The notes beneath the pieces were generated by a model. It saw nothing but the letters and a program-made list of their open reading frames with translations. It was not told the origin of the DNA and ran no database searches. The position numbers were made by a program, and so were the translations under genes. Positions 25,885 through 29,547 of a DNA stretch of 64,000 nt are shown here, in pieces (within the stretch, counting starts at the first letter, position 1; the number at the start of each line of letters is the position of its first letter). This DNA is from Candidatus Omnitrophota bacterium. GTDB taxonomy: Bacteria; Omnitrophota; Gorgyraeia; Duberdicusellales; 4484-171. Location: assembly GCA_021735655.1 (NCBI GenBank), contig JAIPGM010000005.1, positions 1 to 64,000 of the forward strand, read 5' to 3'.

Positions 25885-27213
25885 CTACACTACGCCTTGG
25901 TCAAGCATAGCATCGGCTACTTTCACAAATCCAGCGATATTTGCACCATTCACATAGTTGGTAAAACCATCTTTCTTACCGTACTTTACGCAAGATTCAT
26001 GGATACTTACCATAATCGATTGAAGCTTCTGATCAACTTCCTCTCTAGTCCAAGATAATCGCTGACTATTCTGTGACATCTCTAGGCCACTAACGGCAAC
26101 TCCGCCGGCATTTGCAGCTTTTCCTGGGCCATAAAGAATCTTGGCCTTGAGGAATACTTTTACCGCATCCGGTGTGCTAGGCATATTTGCTCCTTCACCA
26201 ACAGCTATACAGCCGTTTTTAACTAGTGCTTCAGCATCATCCTTATCTATCTCATTTTGAGTTGCGCTAGGAAAAGCCACATCACACTTTGTGTTCCAAG
26301 GACGTTTCCCTTCTAAGTATTGACAATTATATTTAGCAGCGTATTCTTTAATTCTTCCTCGCTTTACATTTTTAAGTTCCATAACATAGGCTAACTTTTC
26401 AGGGCTTATACCTTCAGGATCATAAACTGTACCGCCCGAATCAGATAAAGTAACACATTTTCCTCCAAGTTGATTTACTTTTTCAACAGTGTATTGGGCT
26501 ACATTTCCTGAACCAGAAACTGTACAGATTTTTCCCGATAGAGATTCGCCTTTAGTCTTAAGCATTTCCTGAACAAAATATACACAACCATAACCAGTAG
26601 CCTCGGGCCTAATTAAGCTTCCGCCCCAACCTAGGGCTTTTCCAGTAAGAACTCCGGTAAATTCGTTACGTAGTCTTTTGTATTGACCGTACATGAATCC
26701 GATTTCCCGACCGCCTACGCCGATATCTCCGGCTGGAACGTCAGTATCTGGTCCGATATGTCGCGAAAGCTCGGTCATAAAACTCTGGCAGAATTTCATT
26801 ACTTCATTATCCGACTTGCCCTTAGGATCAAAGTTAGAGCCACCTTTTCCTCCGCCCATCGGAAGAGTAGTTAAACTATTCTTAAAAACCTGCTCAAAGG
26901 CCAAAAATTTCAAAATGCTTAAGTTAACACTCGGATGAAAACGCAACCCCCCTTTATAGGGACCAATTGCACTGCTCATCTCAATCCGGTAACCTCTATT
27001 AACCTGAACTTCACCTTTATCGTCAACCCAAGGAACCCGAAAAATTATTAACCTTTCTGGTTCAACCATCCGGTCTAAAATCTTCGCATCTAAATATTTT
27101 GGGTTTTCCCGCACAAAAGGCATAACCGAAGCTACTACCTCATGAACAGCTTGATGGAACTCCTTTTCGCCAGCATGAGTTTCAACTATTTTTTTCATGA
27201 ATTCCTGCGGCAT
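25885..27213 (-). CDS. gdhA: NADP-specific glutamate dehydrogenase.
   Basis: 442 aa. GDH motifs (GGGKGG, Rossmann domain GSGNVAQY). Confidence 0.93.
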
Positions 27214-27323
27214 AGTTACCTCCTTATTTTAACTTTTACCAATAAATACTATAACTAACTAGAACAAATGCTCCAAGGGTATGATCCATCTTCCATCTTT
27301 ACTAAATCTTTCCATAAAGTTCT

Positions 27324-28721
27324 CTACCATTTACCTGTTTCTAAATACTGATCAATTGCCAAAGCAGCGGCTTTTCCAGCCCCCATAGCTAAGATTACCG
27401 TAGCTGCACCAGTAGCAATATCTCCTCCGGCAAAAACCCCTTTTTTGCTGGTTTTGCCGGTGTCAGTATCGACTACGATATTTCCCTTTCTTCCTATTTC
27501 AAGACCACTAGTTGTAGAAGGAATCAAGGGATTCGGGCTATTGCCAATAGCTACAACCACTAAATCTACCGGAAGCTTAAAATTTGAGCCCTCGATCGGA
27601 ACTGGACGCCGGCGACCTGAAGTATCCGGTTCACCCAAATCCATTCGCAAACATTCCATATCTTTTACCCAACCTTTTTCATCAGCATGATAGGCAATCG
27701 GCAGGGTTAGAAACTCAAAGATTACTCCTTCTTCTTCGGCATGATGGATCTCTTCTTCTCTAGCCGGCATCTCCTTACGTGAGCGCCGATAGATAATCCT
27801 AGCTTCTTCTGCACCTAAGCGAAGGGCGGTTCTTACTGAATCCATAGCTACATTACCACCACCAATCACAGCAACGTGTTTTCCTTTTATGATTGGAGTA
27901 TCATATTCAGGAAACTTATAGGCCTTCATTAAATTTACTCGAGTTAAATACTCATTGGCCGAATATATACCGTTAGAGTTTTCACCGGGTAAGTCCATAA
28001 ACCAAGGTAAACCAGCCCCGCTACCGATAAATACCGCATCAAATTCATTTAATAGCTCATCTACAGTTTCAAGTTTTCCAACCACAAAGGAAGTTACTAC
28101 TTCCACCCCTAAAGACTTTATATATTCAACCTCTCGTTCAACTACCTTTTTCGGTAAACGAAACTCAGGAATCCCATATATTAACACCCCGCCCATCTTA
28201 TGCAGGGCTTCAAATATTTTTACCTTATGCCCTAATTTAGCTAACTCGCCAGCCACAGTAAGCCCGGCTGGGCCGCCGCCAACTACAGCTACCTTTTTAC
28301 CGGAAGAAGCAACTTTTCTAGGAGCTTCTCGGTTGGTTTGCTCTGCCTCCCAATCAGCGATAAACCGCTCTAGGCGGCCGATACCTACTGGTTCGCCCAT
28401 TTTAGATAATATACAAACCTTCTGGCACTGCTCCTCCTGAGGACAAACTCTACCGCAGATTGCTGGAAGACTATTAGTTTCCTTCATCTTCTTTATTGAG
28501 CCCTTTAAATCTCCCTTAGCAATTAAATCGATAAAGCCGGGGATATCGATACCCACCGGACAACCATCTATACATAAGGGTTTTTTACATTGTAAACAAC
28601 GCTTAGCTTCGCAAATAGCTTCATCAAGCGAATAACCATAAGGCACTTCTTTAAAGTTATTTCTTCGCTCGGACGGATCCTGTTCGCGCATTGGTACCAT
28701 TTTAGGGTCAGGTTTATTCAT
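27324..28721 (-). CDS. GltD-like NAD(P)H oxidoreductase subunit: NfnB / SudA-type (GOGAT small-subunit homolog).
   Basis: 465 aa with Cys clusters CLQCKKPLCIDGCP and CGRVCP, and VAVVGGGPAGL. Paired with a PyrK-like subunit. A genuine gltBD is present elsewhere in the window, so NfnAB is more likely than GOGAT. Confidence 0.75.
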   Translation of the reverse strand: MNKPDPKMVPMREQDPSERRNNFKEVPYGYSLDEAICEAKRCLQCKKPLCIDGCPVGIDIPGFIDLIAKGDLKGSIKKMKETNSLPAICGRVCPQEEQCQKVCILSKMGEPVGIGRLERFIADWEAEQTNREAPRKVASSGKKVAVVGGGPAGLTVAGELAKLGHKVKIFEALHKMGGVLIYGIPEFRLPKKVVEREVEYIKSLGVEVVTSFVVGKLETVDELLNEFDAVFIGSGAGLPWFMDLPGENSNGIYSANEYLTRVNLMKAYKFPEYDTPIIKGKHVAVIGGGNVAMDSVRTALRLGAEEARIIYRRSRKEMPAREEEIHHAEEEGVIFEFLTLPIAYHADEKGWVKDMECLRMDLGEPDTSGRRRPVPIEGSNFKLPVDLVVVAIGNSPNPLIPSTTSGLEIGRKGNIVVDTDTGKTSKKGVFAGGDIATGAATVILAMGAGKAAALAIDQYLETGKW

Positions 28722-29547
28722 TGTTAATTTGCTTATTTAATTTGCACATTGACTTATCCTCATGCTGCAAAAATCTCTTCTGCCTGGTCATCAACTCATT
28801 AAAATCTACCTTGTGTCCGTCAAAGTCCGGGCCATCAACACAGGTAAACTTAGTTTTATTATTAACCGTAACTCGACAGCCACCGCACATACCAGTTCCG
28901 TCAATCATAATTGCATTAAGACAAACTATAGTTTCTATCTTGTATCCTCTAGTTAAATCAGAAACCGCCTTCATCATTACAACTGGCCCAACACAAAATA
29001 CCAAACCCCAGTCTGAACTTTCACTAAGCAAGCGCTTTAAAGGATCGATTACCAGGCCTTTTTCACCAAGTGAGCCATCATCAGTAGTAATATAAAGCTG
29101 GTCTGAAAACTCCTTAACCTGATCGCGCAAGATCACTAACTTTTCAGTGCGGCCGCCTAAAATTGAGCTTATCTCACACCCAGCTTTTTTAAAAGCCTTA
29201 ACTACCGGCAAAAGCTCAGCAATACCTACACCGCCACCGACAACAATAACCTTTCCATAATTCTTAATCTCTGTGGGTTTGCCTAAGGGTCCGACTAAAG
29301 AATAAAGTGAATCTCCAACTGCTAGTTTACCAAGCAACTTAGTAGTGTAGCCTACCTCTTGAAAAATAATTGTAATCAACCCTTTTTCTTTATCGACATC
29401 AACAATAGTCAAAGGAATACGTTCACCAGCCTCATTAACCATCAACACAACAAACTGACCGGGTAATGCCTTTTTGGCAATAAGCGGTGATTGGATAACA
29501 AACTTGGTTAAATCTTTAGCAATCGACTCTTTAACGATAATTTTCAC
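28714..29547 (-). CDS. PyrK/ferredoxin-NADP reductase-like FAD/[2Fe-2S] subunit (NfnA / SudB-type).
   Basis: 277 aa. FAD/NAD-binding fold and C-terminal CGGC...C cluster. Eight-nucleotide overlap with the GltD-like gene. Confidence 0.75.
   Translation of the reverse strand: MKIIVKESIAKDLTKFVIQSPLIAKKALPGQFVVLMVNEAGERIPLTIVDVDKEKGLITIIFQEVGYTTKLLGKLAVGDSLYSLVGPLGKPTEIKNYGKVIVVGGGVGIAELLPVVKAFKKAGCEISSILGGRTEKLVILRDQVKEFSDQLYITTDDGSLGEKGLVIDPLKRLLSESSDWGLVFCVGPVVMMKAVSDLTRGYKIETIVCLNAIMIDGTGMCGGCRVTVNNKTKFTCVDGPDFDGHKVDFNELMTRQKRFLQHEDKSMCKLNKQINNE

What the first reader, a model, noticed from the sequence alone, without database searches (positions are those of the whole stretch)
25885..29547. 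NfnAB-like electron-bifurcating transhydrogenase pair directly upstream of NADP-dependent gdhA
The pair is PyrK-like (277 aa, FAD plus 2Fe-2S) and GltD-like (465 aa, two Fe-S Cys clusters plus FAD/NADPH site), overlapping by 8 nt. Because a complete gltBD exists 10 kb away, these are not GOGAT subunits; NfnAB/SudAB is the best fit. Placement with gdhA behind one candidate promoter suggests NADPH regeneration from ferredoxin/NADH coupled to reductive amination. This gives an energy-efficient ammonium assimilation route for an anaerobe.
Basis: partly seen in the sequence, partly recalled or inferred. Interest (0 to 1): 0.5.

Follow-up and report, generated by a model that had tools for sequence, protein, structure and literature searches.

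The report
NfnAB–gdhA operon under ANTAR-type nitrogen control
Two overlapping genes encode a standard electron-bifurcating NfnAB transhydrogenase that very probably shares one transcript with an NADP-type glutamate dehydrogenase, and a conserved leader terminator next to a GAF-ANTAR regulator gene places the operon in the nitrogen regulon of an uncultured Omnitrophota bacterium.

Summary
On the minus strand lie nfnA (28714-29547, 277 aa), nfnB (27324-28721, 465 aa, 8-nt overlap) and gdhA (25885-27213, 442 aa).

- **Nfn identity.** The pair is a true NfnAB orthologue. NfnB is 63% identical to Thermotoga maritima NfnB and 36% to the window's own GltD. All published Nfn cofactor motifs are present.
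- **GdhA.** It scores as NADP-specific and carries the NADP-type serines.
- **Transcription.** The best promoter match in 13 kb precedes nfnA. The nfnB-gdhA spacer has no terminator.
The nfnA leader holds a strong intrinsic terminator overlapped by a covarying hexaloop hairpin (core ACAARGRCGU). The gene immediately upstream encodes a GAF-ANTAR protein.
- **Regulon.** The same element precedes nfnA, gdhA, stand-alone glutamate-synthase genes, glnA, carB and porin-amt operons in ten related Omnitrophota loci (19 of 20 motif hits).
- **Synteny.** Relatives carry nfnA-nfnB-icd-gdhA. nfnAB-gdhA adjacency also recurs in Bacillota and Fermentibacteria.

The enzyme itself is ordinary. The nitrogen-regulated operon context appears undescribed in the literature searched. 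NADPH supply for reductive amination is an inference, not shown.

The parts
29699..30400 (-). GAF-ANTAR regulator gene (233 aa), immediately upstream of the nfnA promoter
   Evidence: Pfam GAF_2 71 bits and ANTAR 70 bits (cutoff 27.3). More than 120 homologue clusters at 74% identity or more; those that carry a source name are from Omnitrophota/Omnitrophica.
29664..29691 (-). sigma-70-type promoter candidate (TTGACA-16-TATATT, TG extension)
   Evidence: 11/12 match, best of 30 sites in 18-31 kb. Conserved almost base for base in L162, L163 and L166.
29639..29658 (-). leader hairpin AGGAGAC-AAGGAC-GUCUUUU (hexaloop with A at position 1 and G at position 4), candidate antiterminator / ANTAR binding site
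   Evidence: My hexaloop scan. Strict motif ACAARGRCGT occurs twice in 64 kb, both in leaders (expected 0.31). Stem covariation across 19 instances. Covariance-model hit of 22.3 bits (training sequence).
29600..29651 (-). intrinsic terminator in the nfnA leader (19-pair stem plus U7); its 5' arm is the loop and 3' arm of the hairpin above
   Evidence: Fold -22.3 kcal/mol, z = -6.8. Compensatory A-U to G-C change at the stem base in L162/L163.
28714..29547 (-). nfnA: small subunit (a-FAD, [2Fe-2S], NADH site)
   Evidence: PRK06222 387 bits. 293 bits to P. furiosus NfnI-S (5jca_S), 263 to T. maritima NfnA and 188 to the 5vj7_B chain. Motifs ERIPLT and DGTGMCGGCR-x10-CV present.
27324..28721 (-). 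nfnB: large subunit (b-FAD bifurcation site, two [4Fe-4S], NADPH site)
   Evidence: TIGR01316 599 bits. 620 bits and 63% identity to T. maritima NfnB (4ylf_B). Motifs RCLQCKKPLCIDGCPV, GRVCPQEEQCQKVC...G..ER, GIPEFRLP and YRRSRKEMPA present.
27214..27323 (-). nfnB-gdhA spacer with no terminator and a strong ribosome-binding site (AAGGAGG) before gdhA
   Evidence: No terminator-like site. Fold no more stable than shuffles, z = +1.29. Sequence.
25885..27213 (-). gdhA: hexameric NADP-type glutamate dehydrogenase
   Evidence: PRK09414 770 bits (cutoff 536). Best solved relatives are 4fcc (chain named only 'Glutamate dehydrogenase') at 607 bits and 3sbo, named NADP-specific GDH, at 605; the chain named NAD-specific (1aup) scores 528 and its relative 1bgv 534. 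GSGNVA and TLSDSGG place Ser at the F238 and P262 equivalents (PMC3157743).
25779..25845 (-). canonical dual-hexaloop ANTAR-type element (UAAC-AAAGAA-GUUA, GGC-AAAGAA-GCC) overlapping the terminator after gdhA
   Evidence: Fold -26.1 kcal/mol, z = -5.2. Both hairpins conserved in L162 and L166. Weak covariance-model hit at E = 0.6.
25246..25758 (-). small GerE/LuxR-type HTH (sigma-70 region-4-like) protein downstream of the gated terminator
   Evidence: Pfam GerE 34 bits; TIGR02937 37 bits, below cutoff. Conserved at the same place in L162 and L166; a weak GerE-type gene also follows the ANTAR gene in L168.
25156..25210 (-). second attenuator of the same type (AACAC-AAAGGC-GUGUU plus terminator) ahead of porin-like-amt-amt-glnB
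   Evidence: Fold z = -5.5. The ACAAAGGCGT core is invariant in L162, L166 and L168. Covariance-model hit of 28.8 bits (training sequence).
21229..25136 (-). porin-like gene, two amt genes and glnB (P-II): downstream nitrogen-uptake genes of the same gene string
   Evidence: TIGR00836 445 and 476 bits. P-II-sized ORF at 21229-21570.
21056..21136 (-). glnB-glnA spacer: two hairpins (GCAC-AAAGUUU-GUGC; AAAAC-AAUGGU-GUUUU) overlapping a terminator; probable further member of the regulon
   Evidence: Sequence. Weak covariance-model hits at E = 0.96 and 4.5. Not conserved-checked.
12706..18676 (-). bona fide gltB-gltD (context: shows that nfnB is not the GOGAT small subunit)
   Evidence: PRK11750 1774 bits and TIGR01317 601 bits. 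GltD is best against GOGAT small chains in the PDB.
56065..57279 (-). icd-like (Iso_dh) gene; its orthologue sits between nfnB and gdhA in relatives
   Evidence: Pfam Iso_dh 230 bits. 70-75% identical to the genes inside the operon in L162, L163 and L003.

Best explanation
[quoted passage not shown] They are transcribed with an NADP-type glutamate dehydrogenase from one promoter at 29691-29664. The likely role is to convert reduced ferredoxin plus NADH into 2 NADPH, which GdhA uses to aminate 2-oxoglutarate (the NADPH-GOGAT and other biosynthesis could draw on it as well). Transcription is gated after initiation. The leader folds into a strong intrinsic terminator. A short hairpin with a conserved hexaloop (AAGGAC; family core ACAARGRCGU) competes for the terminator's 5' arm. 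The GAF-ANTAR protein encoded immediately upstream most likely stabilises that hairpin when its GAF domain senses a nitrogen or carbon status signal, letting RNA polymerase read into nfnAB-gdhA. Similar elements sit after gdhA, before the porin-amt-amt-glnB genes and before glnA. The operon is therefore one unit of a nitrogen-assimilation regulon. Shown: gene identities, cofactor motifs, promoter and terminator presence, hairpin covariation, motif distribution and synteny. Inferred: co-transcription, ANTAR binding, the ligand, the direction of Nfn flux and the metabolic coupling.
For: Nfn identity:
- NfnB scores 620 bits and is 63% identical to T. maritima NfnB. NfnA scores 293 and 263 bits against P. 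furiosus NfnI-S and T. maritima NfnA, against 188 for the 5vj7_B chain.
- Every motif listed in the Nfn review (PMC6405883) is present: ERxPxT, DGTGMCGxCRx10CV, RCx2Cx4Cx3CPV and GRVCPQExQCx3C..Gx2ER. GIPEFRLP and YRRS are also present.
- The window's GltD lacks these motifs and matches GOGAT small chains best.

GdhA type:
- The NADP-specific equivalog scores 770 bits against a cutoff of 536, and the best PDB relatives are 4fcc and the chain named NADP-specific GDH, 3sbo.
- Ser occupies both positions whose mutation to Ser shifts clostridial GDH towards NADPH.

Operon:
- The promoter is the best candidate in 13 kb.
- The nfnB-gdhA spacer is unstructured, z = +1.29.
- A terminator follows gdhA, z = -5.2.

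Synteny:
- nfnA-nfnB-gdhA occurs in L002, L166 and L169. nfnA-nfnB-icd-gdhA occurs in L162 and L163. nfnA-nfnB-icd occurs in L003.
- gdhA lies directly beside nfnAB in Bacillota (L017, L042) and Fermentibacteria/Aegiribacteria (L026, L034, L048, L062). That is 7 of 141 nfnAB loci.

Attenuator:
- The leader terminator folds with z = -6.8 and shows a compensatory base-pair change in relatives.
- The strict motif occurs only twice in the window, both times in leaders.
- 19 of 20 motif occurrences in 213 kb of Omnitrophota sequence lie on the coding strand, in leaders, followed by a stem and a U-run, ahead of nfnA (5), gdhA (3), Glu_synthase (3), porin-amt or amt (5), GS, carB and the ANTAR gene.
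- Hairpin stem pairs 5-16 and 4-17 covary (GC/AU/CG/GU). The covariation score is 0.318 against 0.178 +/- 0.039 for shuffles (0 of 500 reach it) and at most 0.164 for slid controls.
- A1 and G4 in hexaloops are the published ANTAR recognition features (PMC3369931).
- The GAF-ANTAR gene is adjacent here and in L162, L163, L164 and L166.
Against: - No expression or biochemical data exist; the organism is an uncultured MAG.
- The nfnA leader has only one well-conserved hexaloop hairpin. The second (UGC-ACAGCA-GCG at the terminator apex) is not conserved in L163, and three instances start the loop with G rather than A. Binding by an ANTAR dimer is therefore not assured there.
- A weak internal promoter for gdhA cannot be excluded (9/12 site at 27502-27475). 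In L162 and L163 gdhA has its own attenuator.
- Where icd is in the operon, Icd plus GDH is already NADPH-neutral, so Nfn is not strictly needed to feed GDH.
- In C. thermocellum, deleting nfnAB had no measurable effect on ammonium-limited physiology (PMC9888227).
- nfnAB-gdhA adjacency is a minority arrangement (about 5% of loci sampled).
- All assimilation genes carry the same element, so the sign of regulation (nitrogen excess or limitation) is unknown.
Confidence: 0.65

Rival explanations
1. Same enzymes, opposite direction. GdhA deaminates glutamate and yields NADPH. NfnAB then bifurcates 2 NADPH into reduced ferredoxin plus NADH for fermentative energy metabolism (amino-acid catabolism).
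For: Nfn is reversible and was studied mechanistically in the bifurcating direction. By my own recollection, NADP-GDH works catabolically in Thermococcales; the one paper read (PMC4762990) only lists FNOR, GDH and alanine aminotransferase together in a pathway figure. Some lineages with gdhA beside nfnAB (Syntrophomonadaceae L017, Fermentibacteria) are fermenters.
Against: All genes around the operon in the window are anabolic nitrogen-assimilation genes: amt x2, glnB, glnA, gltBD, carAB, purF, pyrG and asnB. Relatives insert icd, a 2-oxoglutarate supplier, between nfnB and gdhA. By my own knowledge, catabolic bacterial GDHs are usually NAD-specific, and this one carries NADP-type residues.
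Confidence: 0.12
2. The pair is not a bifurcating transhydrogenase. It could be a GltA-type 'homotetrameric' glutamate synthase or the electron-input module of a glutamate synthase. Alternatively it could be a SudAB- or NfnII-like non-bifurcating ferredoxin:NADP oxidoreductase with another acceptor.
For: NCBIfam still names TIGR01316 'NADPH-dependent glutamate synthase'. In L164, L168 and L169 an nfnAB-like pair lies next to a stand-alone Glu_synthase-domain gene. P. furiosus NfnII shows no NAD-dependent activity (PMC6405883).
Against: The window has its own complete gltBD. The pair is much closer to biochemically proven NfnAB/NfnI than to the 5vj7 chains (620 and 519 bits against 480 for NfnB; 293 and 263 against 188 for NfnA) or to GltD (301). 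All bifurcation-related motifs are intact. The pairs next to Glu_synthase in L164 and L168 are a divergent subclade: 50% identity, PAEYQC and GIPPFRL motifs, and no match to the NfnA [2Fe-2S] pattern. The protein has no amidotransferase or FMN/synthase domain.
Confidence: 0.08
3. nfnAB and gdhA are merely neighbours. nfnAB is a housekeeping redox-balancing operon that happens to lie in a nitrogen island, with no dedicated coupling to GDH.
For: About 95% of nfnAB loci sampled have no gdhA nearby. The Nfn review lists many different neighbourhoods and none with GDH. Deleting nfnAB did not alter ammonium-limited physiology in C. thermocellum.
Against: Adjacency recurs in at least three phyla and in six Omnitrophota loci despite local rearrangements of icd, the ANTAR gene and Glu_synthase. 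The same leader motif precedes nfnA and classical nitrogen genes. There is no terminator between nfnB and gdhA.
Confidence: 0.12

Closest known systems
NfnAB of Thermotoga maritima (PDB 4YLF/4YRY) and NfnI (= sulfide dehydrogenase SudAB) of Pyrococcus furiosus (5JCA)
   Same: Two-subunit architecture with adjacent genes. 63% and 57% identity for the large subunit, 49% and 53% for the small one. All FAD, [2Fe-2S] (Asp plus 3 Cys) and 2x[4Fe-4S] motifs, the conserved Arg in GIPEFRLP and the YRR NADPH motif are present.
   Different: The gene context. The Nfn review describes neighbourhoods such as Rex, Bcd/Etf, hydrogenase and PFOR. Here the operon carries gdhA, sits in a nitrogen island and is preceded by an ANTAR-type attenuator. 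The spacing in the second Fe-S motif is x11, as in P. furiosus, rather than x13 as in T. maritima.
GltD, small subunit of bacterial NADPH-glutamate synthase (e.g. Azospirillum brasilense 6S6S_G)
   Same: Same fold family: Fer4_20 plus Pyr_redox_2, two [4Fe-4S] clusters, FAD and an NADPH site.
   Different: Only 36% identical to the window's GltD. Below the TIGR01317 cutoff. Partnered with a PyrK-like subunit instead of GltB. Arg rather than Lys in GIPxF[R/K]L, and PQE rather than PAI in the cluster motif.
ANTAR antitermination systems (EutV/eut of Enterococcus faecalis, NasR/nasF of Klebsiella, AmiR) and the predicted ANTAR nitrogen regulons of Firmicutes and Deltaproteobacteria
   Same: An ANTAR-domain regulator next to its targets. 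Hexaloop hairpins with A1 and G4 overlap an intrinsic terminator. Targets are nitrogen-metabolism genes such as P-II, amt, GS and glutamate synthase (PMC3369931).
   Different: The sensor is a GAF domain, not a receiver or NIT domain. Many sites show one strongly conserved hairpin (ACAAAGGCGU) rather than an obvious pair. The regulon includes nfnAB, gdhA and in relatives icd; the term search of that paper's supplementary files found no glutamate dehydrogenase and no 'dihydroorotate'-named gene. The lineage is Omnitrophota. No Rfam family matches.
Ferredoxin to NADPH to GDH electron route of Thermococcales (FNOR/SuDH plus NADP-GDH plus alanine aminotransferase)
   Same: The same three-step logic: reduced ferredoxin is converted by an Nfn-type enzyme into NADPH, which NADP-GDH consumes (pathway figure in PMC4762990; otherwise my own knowledge of Ward et al. 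2000, not held in the library).
   Different: In Thermococcales the genes are unlinked and the route serves as an electron sink. Here the genes form one operon in an assimilatory, nitrogen-regulated context.

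Membership tests
[quoted passage not shown] | Adjacent genes for a ~30-kDa FNR/PyrK-like subunit and a ~50-kDa GltD-like subunit | tested here: met
   277-aa and 465-aa ORFs overlapping by 8 nt. The nfnA-nfnB pairing holds in nearly all of the 160 related loci.
[quoted passage not shown] | NfnA a-FAD strand ERxPxT and atypical [2Fe-2S] site DGTGMCGxCRx10CV (Asp plus 3 Cys) | tested here: met
   ERIPLT at residue 42 and DGTGMCGGCRVTVNNKTKFTCV at residue 216. Motifs taken from PMC6405883.
[quoted passage not shown] | NfnB [4Fe-4S] motifs RCx2Cx4Cx3CPV and GRVCPQExQCx3C...Gx2ER (one cluster with a Glu ligand) | tested here: met
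   RCLQCKKPLCIDGCPV at residue 41 and GRVCPQEEQCQKVC-x11-GRLER at residue 90. The spacing is x11, as in P. furiosus NfnI, rather than the x13 of T. maritima.
[quoted passage not shown] | Conserved Arg contacting N5 of the bifurcating b-FAD; two Arg residues for the NADPH 2'-phosphate | tested here: met
   GIPEFRLP is identical to the T. maritima stretch (its Arg is R187 by my count in the alignment). That R187 is the N5 contact is from memory of Demmer et al. 2015. YRRSRKEMPA aligns with T. maritima YRRTEREMPA. The window's GltD has GIPDFKL.
[quoted passage not shown] | Closer to proven bifurcating NfnAB/NfnI than to the second P. furiosus pair (5vj7, taken to be NfnII) or to GltD | tested here: met
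   NfnB scores 620, 519, 480 and 301 bits against T. maritima NfnB, P. furiosus NfnI-L, 5vj7_A and GltD. NfnA scores 293, 263 and 188 bits against NfnI-S, T. maritima NfnA and 5vj7_B.
[quoted passage not shown] | Catalyses Fd_red + NADH + 2 NADP+ -> Fd_ox + NAD+ + 2 NADPH | not testable with these tools
   Needs an enzyme assay of the purified complex.
GOGAT small subunit (GltD) | Reaches the GltD family model cutoff and is partnered with gltB | tested here: not met
   TIGR01317 scores 282 bits against a cutoff of 447.7. gltB is 9 kb away and has its own gltD scoring 601 bits.
NADP-specific hexameric glutamate dehydrogenase (GdhA) | Family model above cutoff; NADP-type residues at the coenzyme pocket (Ser at the C. 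symbiosum F238 and P262 equivalents; non-acidic residue at D263) | tested here: met
   PRK09414 scores 770 bits against a cutoff of 536. GSGNVA and TLSDSGG give Ser, Ser and Gly at the three positions. The margin over the NAD-specific clostridial GDH is modest (607 against 534 bits), so kinetics are still required.
ANTAR antitermination system | Regulator with an ANTAR RNA-binding domain | tested here: met
   PF03861 scores 70 bits against a cutoff of 27.3, C-terminal to a GAF domain.
ANTAR antitermination system | Two tandem hairpins with hexanucleotide loops carrying A1 and G4 | tested here: inconclusive
   Clearly met in the gdhA-luxR spacer (AAAGAA and AAAGAA; conserved in L162 and L166). 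In the nfnA leader one hairpin is conserved and covaries. The second (ACAGCA at the terminator apex) has only a 3-bp stem and loses G4 in L163. Loop position 1 is G in 3 of 19 instances.
ANTAR antitermination system | Hairpin mutually exclusive with an intrinsic terminator in the 5' leader | tested here: met
   The terminator's 5' arm starts inside the hexaloop and uses the hairpin's 3' arm at all sites. 19 of 20 motif hits are followed by a stem and a U-run.
ANTAR antitermination system | Protein binds the RNA and relieves termination in response to a signal | not testable with these tools
   Needs gel-shift and in vitro transcription assays. The GAF ligand is unknown.

The most novel reading that the evidence does not exclude
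Omnitrophota may run a phylum-wide nitrogen regulon through one highly conserved GAF-ANTAR protein and a compact attenuator: a single covarying hexaloop hairpin with core ACAAAGGCGU fused to a terminator. This regulon would include not only amt, glnB, glnA and GOGAT but also an electron-bifurcating NfnAB, icd and gdhA. Supply of low-potential electrons and NADPH would then be switched together with ammonium assimilation by an RNA-level signal, with 2-oxoglutarate or glutamine possibly sensed by the GAF domain.
Probability: 0.5. Interest if true: 0.5.

Novelty: new member of a known kind. Interest (0 to 1): 0.33.

Why it matters
NfnAB is a well-understood and widespread enzyme, so its presence is not news. 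The modest value lies in the context.

- **Gene linkage.** An nfnAB-(icd)-gdhA operon recurs in several phyla. This is gene-linkage evidence that anaerobes can dedicate bifurcation-derived NADPH to ATP-free ammonium assimilation.
- **Regulatory element.** The conserved leader gives uncultured Omnitrophota a testable nitrogen-control circuit made of a GAF-ANTAR protein and an ACAAAGGCGU attenuator. That circuit could be used to predict their nitrogen regulon from sequence alone.
- **Annotation.** Pipelines still name this protein family 'NADPH-dependent glutamate synthase'. The result is a reminder that those names can mislead.

Tried and rejected
- **Rfam.** A gathering-threshold scan of the whole window found nothing. 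A permissive scan of 25100-29750 gave only chance snoRNA and CRISPR hits. The leader is not a curated RNA family, including any glutamine riboswitch.
- **Metagenome scan with NfnA.** Relatives were at most 54% identical, with no close Omnitrophota. gdhA was never directly adjacent. The set was useful only as a denominator.
- **Generic dual-hexaloop-plus-T-run scan.** It also hit coding regions (e.g. 55303, 51664, 46012). Those hits were treated as chance because they are neither intergenic nor conserved.
- **Relaxed motif.** ACAAAGGCGT with 2 mismatches is not enriched (52 hits against 51.6 expected). Only the strict core is informative.
- **Regex typo.** One call was lost to a mistyped pattern.
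- **Covariance model of the 20-nt hairpin.** It recovers its two training sites strongly. The other leaders score only at E = 0.6-4.5, so it is too small to stand alone as evidence.
- **L003.** This relative has no attenuator before nfnA, so the leader element is not universal.
- **Literature.** Ward et al. 2000 (PMC111321) was not available.
- **Not run.** Structure prediction and large protein-database searches for NfnAB were judged unnecessary, given more than 50-60% identity to solved, characterised enzymes.
- **Rejected idea.** The idea that the pair is PyrK/PyrD-type dihydroorotate dehydrogenase was rejected. PyrK scores only 84 bits against 293 for NfnI-S, and no pyrD lies adjacent.

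Full report
**1. What is there**

Three ORFs lie head to tail on the minus strand:
- 28714-29547: 277 aa, GTG start preceded by AAGGGGAG.
- 27324-28721: 465 aa, overlapping the first ORF by 8 nt.
- 25885-27213: 442 aa, after a 110-nt spacer and a strong AAGGAGG ribosome-binding site.

Family scans gave the following:

| ORF | Pfam domains | NCBIfam model | Score (cutoff) |
|---|---|---|---|
| 1 | DHODB_Fe-S_bind, NAD_binding_1 | PRK06222, sulfide/dihydroorotate dehydrogenase-like FAD/NAD-binding protein | 387 (220) |
| 2 | Fer4_20, Pyr_redox_2 | TIGR01316 | 599 (472) |
| 3 | both ELFV dehydrogenase domains | PRK09414, NADP-specific GDH | 770 (536) |

**2. Source and surroundings**

The identical NfnB protein is on a Logan contig. 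The GAF-ANTAR protein is recorded at NCBI as coming from a Candidatus Omnitrophica MAG. The closest species-representative genome is an Omnitrophota MAG, with NfnB 78% identical.

The window is a large nitrogen-assimilation island, essentially all on the minus strand. In order it holds:
- GAF-ANTAR (29699-30400)
- nfnA, nfnB, gdhA
- a small GerE/LuxR-type HTH protein
- a porin-like protein
- two amt genes, then glnB and glnA
- a class-I amidotransferase
- gltB and gltD
- a PPDK_N-domain protein
- carA, carB, purF and pyrG

Further away are icd (56065-57279) and asnB. Type IV pilus genes lie upstream of the regulator.

**3. Is the pair NfnAB?**

Scores against solved structures separate the pair from GOGAT small subunits:

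| Query | Target | Bits | Identity |
|---|---|---|---|
| Large subunit | T. maritima NfnB (4ylf_B) | 620 | 63% |
| Large subunit | P. furiosus NfnI-L (5jca_L) | 519 | 57% |
| Large subunit | 5vj7_A (taken to be P. furiosus NfnII) | 480 | not computed |
| Large subunit | A. brasilense GltD | 301 | not computed |
| Large subunit | the window's own GltD | not scored | 36% |
| Small subunit | P. furiosus NfnI-S | 293 | 53% |
| Small subunit | T. maritima NfnA | 263 | 49% |
| Small subunit | 5vj7_B | 188 | not computed |
| Small subunit | PyrK | 84 | not computed |
| Window GltD | GOGAT small chains | 404, 310, 301 | not computed |
| Window GltD | T. maritima NfnB | 246 | not computed |

The Nfn review (PMC6405883) lists these family signatures:
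- ERxPxT at the a-FAD.
- DGTGMCGxCRx10CV for the Asp-ligated [2Fe-2S] cluster.
- RCx2Cx4Cx3CPV and GRVCPQExQCx3C..Gx2ER for the two [4Fe-4S] clusters.
- A conserved Arg at N5 of the bifurcating FAD.
- Two Arg residues for the NADPH phosphate.

All are present in the pair: ERIPLT, DGTGMCGGCRVTVNNKTKFTCV, RCLQCKKPLCIDGCPV, GRVCPQEEQCQKVC..GRLER, GIPEFRLP and YRRSRKEMPA. The window's GltD carries different residues at these sites: GIPDFKL and GRICPAICEHAC.

It is not met. One caveat is that the historical 'homotetrameric glutamate synthase GltA' of Pyrococcus sp. KOD1 belongs, to my knowledge, to this same SudA/NfnB family. Phylogeny alone therefore cannot separate that old claim. The absence of any amidotransferase or FMN-synthase domain argues against it.

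**4. Is gdhA of the NADP type?**

- The NADP-specific equivalog is passed with a wide margin.
- The two best solved relatives are 4fcc (named only 'Glutamate dehydrogenase') at 607 bits and 3sbo, named NADP-specific GDH, at 605. The chain named NAD-specific (1aup) reaches 528 and its relative 1bgv 534.
- Mutagenesis of the clostridial enzyme showed that F238S and P262S (Ser in most NADPH enzymes) and removal of the acidic D263 shift specificity towards NADPH (PMC3157743).
- The window protein has Ser in GSGNVA and Ser in TLSDSGG, with Gly at the D263 position.

This is good sequence evidence for NADPH use. It is not proof, because the score margin is small.

**5. One transcription unit?**

- TTGACA-16-TATATT with a TG extension at 29691-29664 is the best promoter-like site in 13 kb. 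It is conserved nearly base for base in three relatives.
- No terminator-like site lies in the nfnB-gdhA spacer. The spacer folds no better than shuffled sequence, z = +1.29.
- A strong terminator follows gdhA, z = -5.2.

Co-transcription is therefore likely. A weak internal promoter (9/12 at 27502-27475) cannot be excluded.

**6.

Between the promoter and nfnA lies a 19-pair stem followed by U7 (29651-29600). It folds at -22.3 kcal/mol, z = -6.8. A terminator in that position would abort transcription unless it is overridden.

Its 5' arm is shared with a small upstream hairpin, AGGAGAC-AAGGAC-GUCUUUU. The hexaloop of that hairpin has A at position 1 and G at position 4. These are the features shown to be recognised by ANTAR antiterminators (PMC3369931). 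The gene directly upstream encodes a GAF-ANTAR protein.

The 10-nt core ACAARGRCGT occurs only twice in the 64-kb window. One copy is here and the other is in the leader of the porin-amt-amt-glnB genes. The expected count is 0.31, and 1 of 100 shuffles reaches 2.

A textbook dual-hexaloop element sits between gdhA and the LuxR-like gene: UAAC-AAAGAA-GUUA, then GGC-AAAGAA-GCC overlapping a terminator. It is conserved in L162 and L166. The glnB-glnA spacer has a similar arrangement.

**7. Comparative test of the element**

Contexts of GAF-ANTAR homologues gave ten further Omnitrophota loci. More than 120 homologue clusters are at least 74% identical (loci). In 213 kb of window plus loci, AC[AG]A[AG]G[AG]CGT occurs 20 times. 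Nineteen occurrences are on the coding strand, in an intergenic leader, and followed within about 45 nt by a stem and a U-run.

| Gene downstream of the element | Occurrences |
|---|---|
| nfnA | 5 |
| gdhA | 3 |
| stand-alone Glu_synthase | 3 |
| porin-amt or amt | 5 |
| a glutamine synthetase | 1 |
| carB | 1 |
| the ANTAR gene | 1 |

Aligning the 19 sites gave the following:
- The two loop-closing pairs are invariant.
- The next pair is paired in 16 of 17 distinct sequences (GC 7, AU 3, CG 3, GU 3).
- The pair after that is paired in 14 of 17 (AU 7, GC 4, GU 2, UA 1).
- The covariation score is 0.318, against 0.178 +/- 0.039 in shuffles (0 of 500 reach it) and at most 0.164 in slid controls.

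The 3' arm also belongs to the terminator. Its covariation with the upstream arm is therefore evidence for a genuine alternative hairpin. The terminator stem itself shows a compensatory A-U to G-C change between the window and L162/L163.

Weaknesses:
- In the nfnA leader only one hairpin is well conserved.
- The putative second hexaloop at the terminator apex loses G4 in L163.
- Loop position 1 is G in three sites.
- A 20-nt covariance model finds the non-training sites only at E = 0.6-4.5.
- No Rfam family matches.

**8. Synteny and functional linkage**

Omnitrophota arrangements:

| Locus | Gene order |
|---|---|
| Window | ANTAR-nfnA-nfnB-gdhA-luxR-porin-amt |
| L166 | as the window, with an extra 163-aa ORF after nfnB |
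| L162 | ANTAR-nfnA-nfnB-icd-gdhA-luxR-porin-amt |
| L163 | ANTAR-nfnA-nfnB-163aa-icd-gdhA |
| L002 | nfnA-nfnB-gdhA-ANTAR |
| L003 | nfnA-nfnB-icd-ANTAR-porin-amt-glnB-amt |
| L169 | nfnA-nfnB-gdhA-Glu_synthase-glnA-ANTAR |
| L168 | nfnA-nfnB-Glu_synthase-DAO-glnA-ANTAR-luxR-porin-amt... |
| L164 | ANTAR-78aa-nfnA-nfnB-NuoE-NuoF-Fer2_4-Glu_synthase-carB |

An isocitrate dehydrogenase gene lies between nfnB and gdhA in two relatives. It supplies 2-oxoglutarate, and it is 70-75% identical to the window's distant icd. This is the strongest argument that the operon is a glutamate-synthesis module.

Outside the phylum, gdhA lies directly next to nfnAB in two Bacillota MAGs (L017, L042; same strand). 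It also does so in four Fermentibacteria/Aegiribacteria MAGs, in divergent orientation. In all, 7 of 141 nfnAB loci sampled have this adjacency, where random placement would give about 0.1 by my estimate. The linkage is real but a minority arrangement.

**9. Mechanism proposed**

*Shown:* gene identities, motifs, promoter and terminator sequences, hairpin covariation, motif distribution and synteny.

*Inferred:*
1. The GAF-ANTAR protein binds the hexaloop hairpin(s) when its GAF domain is liganded and prevents terminator formation.
2. nfnA-nfnB-gdhA is then transcribed as one mRNA.
3. NfnAB converts reduced ferredoxin plus NADH into 2 NADPH.
4. GdhA uses that NADPH to aminate 2-oxoglutarate without ATP. 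The NADPH-dependent GltBD could draw on the same pool.

Points against a simple reading:
- Icd plus GDH is already NADPH-balanced, so Nfn may act as a buffer rather than an obligatory supplier.
- Deleting nfnAB had no phenotype under ammonium limitation in C. thermocellum (PMC9888227).
- The same element precedes both the low-affinity (gdhA) and high-affinity (amt, glnA, GOGAT) routes. The sign and signal of regulation are therefore unknown.

**10. Rivals**

- **Catabolic direction** (glutamate to NADPH, then to reduced ferredoxin plus NADH). The wholly anabolic neighbourhood and icd in the operon argue against it. Estimated probability about 0.12.
- **A GOGAT-type or non-bifurcating enzyme.** The window's own gltBD, the score ranking and the intact motifs argue against it. 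The divergent pairs beside stand-alone Glu_synthase genes in L164 and L168 deserve a separate look: 50% identity, PAEYQC and GIPPFRL motifs. Estimated probability about 0.08.
- **Mere neighbourhood without coupling.** Recurrent synteny and the shared leader motif argue against it. Estimated probability about 0.12.

**11. Novelty and verdict**

NfnAB is a well-known, widespread enzyme and this is a standard member. The idea that an Nfn-type enzyme feeds NADP-GDH is established physiology in Thermococcales. This rests on the pathway figure in PMC4762990 and on my own knowledge of Ward et al. 2000.

Three things did not turn up in the literature searched:
- The nfnAB-(icd)-gdhA operon.
- Its membership in an ANTAR-type nitrogen regulon.
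- The conserved ACAAAGGCGU attenuator of Omnitrophota.

The finding as written is correct but describes an ordinary enzyme in a sensible place. The regulatory context adds modest interest. Classification: new member of a known kind. Interest: about 0.33.

Noticed in passing
window 142-1677 (+); also L163 14388-15917, L165 6218-7753, L167 5259-6797: A glutamine synthetase with an N-terminal HTH_17 DNA-binding domain (511 aa). The same fusion lies divergently next to the GAF-ANTAR gene in three other Omnitrophota loci, which suggests a regulatory GS or a GS-repressor fusion.
   Followed up: no
window 21056-21136 (-): The glnB-glnA spacer holds two hairpins (GCAC-AAAGUUU-GUGC and AAAAC-AAUGGU-GUUUU) overlapping a terminator. 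It is probably a fourth ANTAR-type attenuator in the window, but only weak covariance-model hits support it.
   Followed up: partly
L164 9038-16224; L168 168-4307; L169 1-5276: In other Omnitrophota an nfnAB-like pair lies next to a stand-alone Glu_synthase-domain gene (529-546 aa); in L169 gdhA sits between them. In L164, NuoE-, NuoF- and Fer2_4-type genes sit between. The L164 and L168 pairs are a divergent subclade (50% identity, GRVCPAEYQC, GIPPFRL, no match to the NfnA [2Fe-2S] regex) and could be electron-input modules of an unusual glutamate synthase.
   Followed up: partly
L167 7001-14702: Here the GAF-ANTAR gene is followed by MoeA, a Porin_5 protein, MobA, a molybdopterin oxidoreductase, a Fer4 protein and a PyrK-like protein. 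This looks like an assimilatory nitrate-reductase-like cluster under the same regulator.
   Followed up: no
window 24345-25136 (-): A 263-aa signal-peptide protein with beta-rich, porin-like sequence has no Pfam or NCBIfam hit. A similar-sized gene with no family hit sits directly ahead of amt in L162, L166 and L168 (68-75% identical in L162 and L166; no sequence match in L168), and a 34%-identical match is present in L003. It may be an outer-membrane ammonium channel.
   Followed up: no
window 18677-18900 (-): A small ORF just upstream of gltB ends in a Fis/NtrC-type helix-turn-helix sequence (..LQAAKILGLNRNTLHSKIKRLGI..). It may be a stand-alone DNA-binding protein associated with gltBD.
   Followed up: no
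window 50793-51410 (-): A Rex-like redox-sensing repressor (Put_DNA-bind_N plus CoA_binding) lies upstream of aminotransferase class V and 2-hydroxyacid dehydrogenase genes (serC/serA-like). The same trio occurs in L162.
   Followed up: no
L163 11068-11559; L166 10220-10711: A 163-aa ORF with no Pfam hit sits between nfnB and icd or gdhA in two close relatives. It is absent from the window.
   Followed up: no
window 10106-12694 (-): An 862-aa protein with only a PPDK_N (PEP-utilising, ATP-binding) domain sits between gltD and carA. Its function in the nitrogen island is unclear.
   Followed up: no
window 38885-41402 (-): A GAF-domain histidine kinase (38885-40216) is followed upstream by three small ORFs (40213-41402) that were not scanned. 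A similar GAF-kinase directly precedes the GAF-ANTAR gene in L162 and L166, there alongside Response_reg genes. This may be a second input into the same circuit.
   Followed up: no
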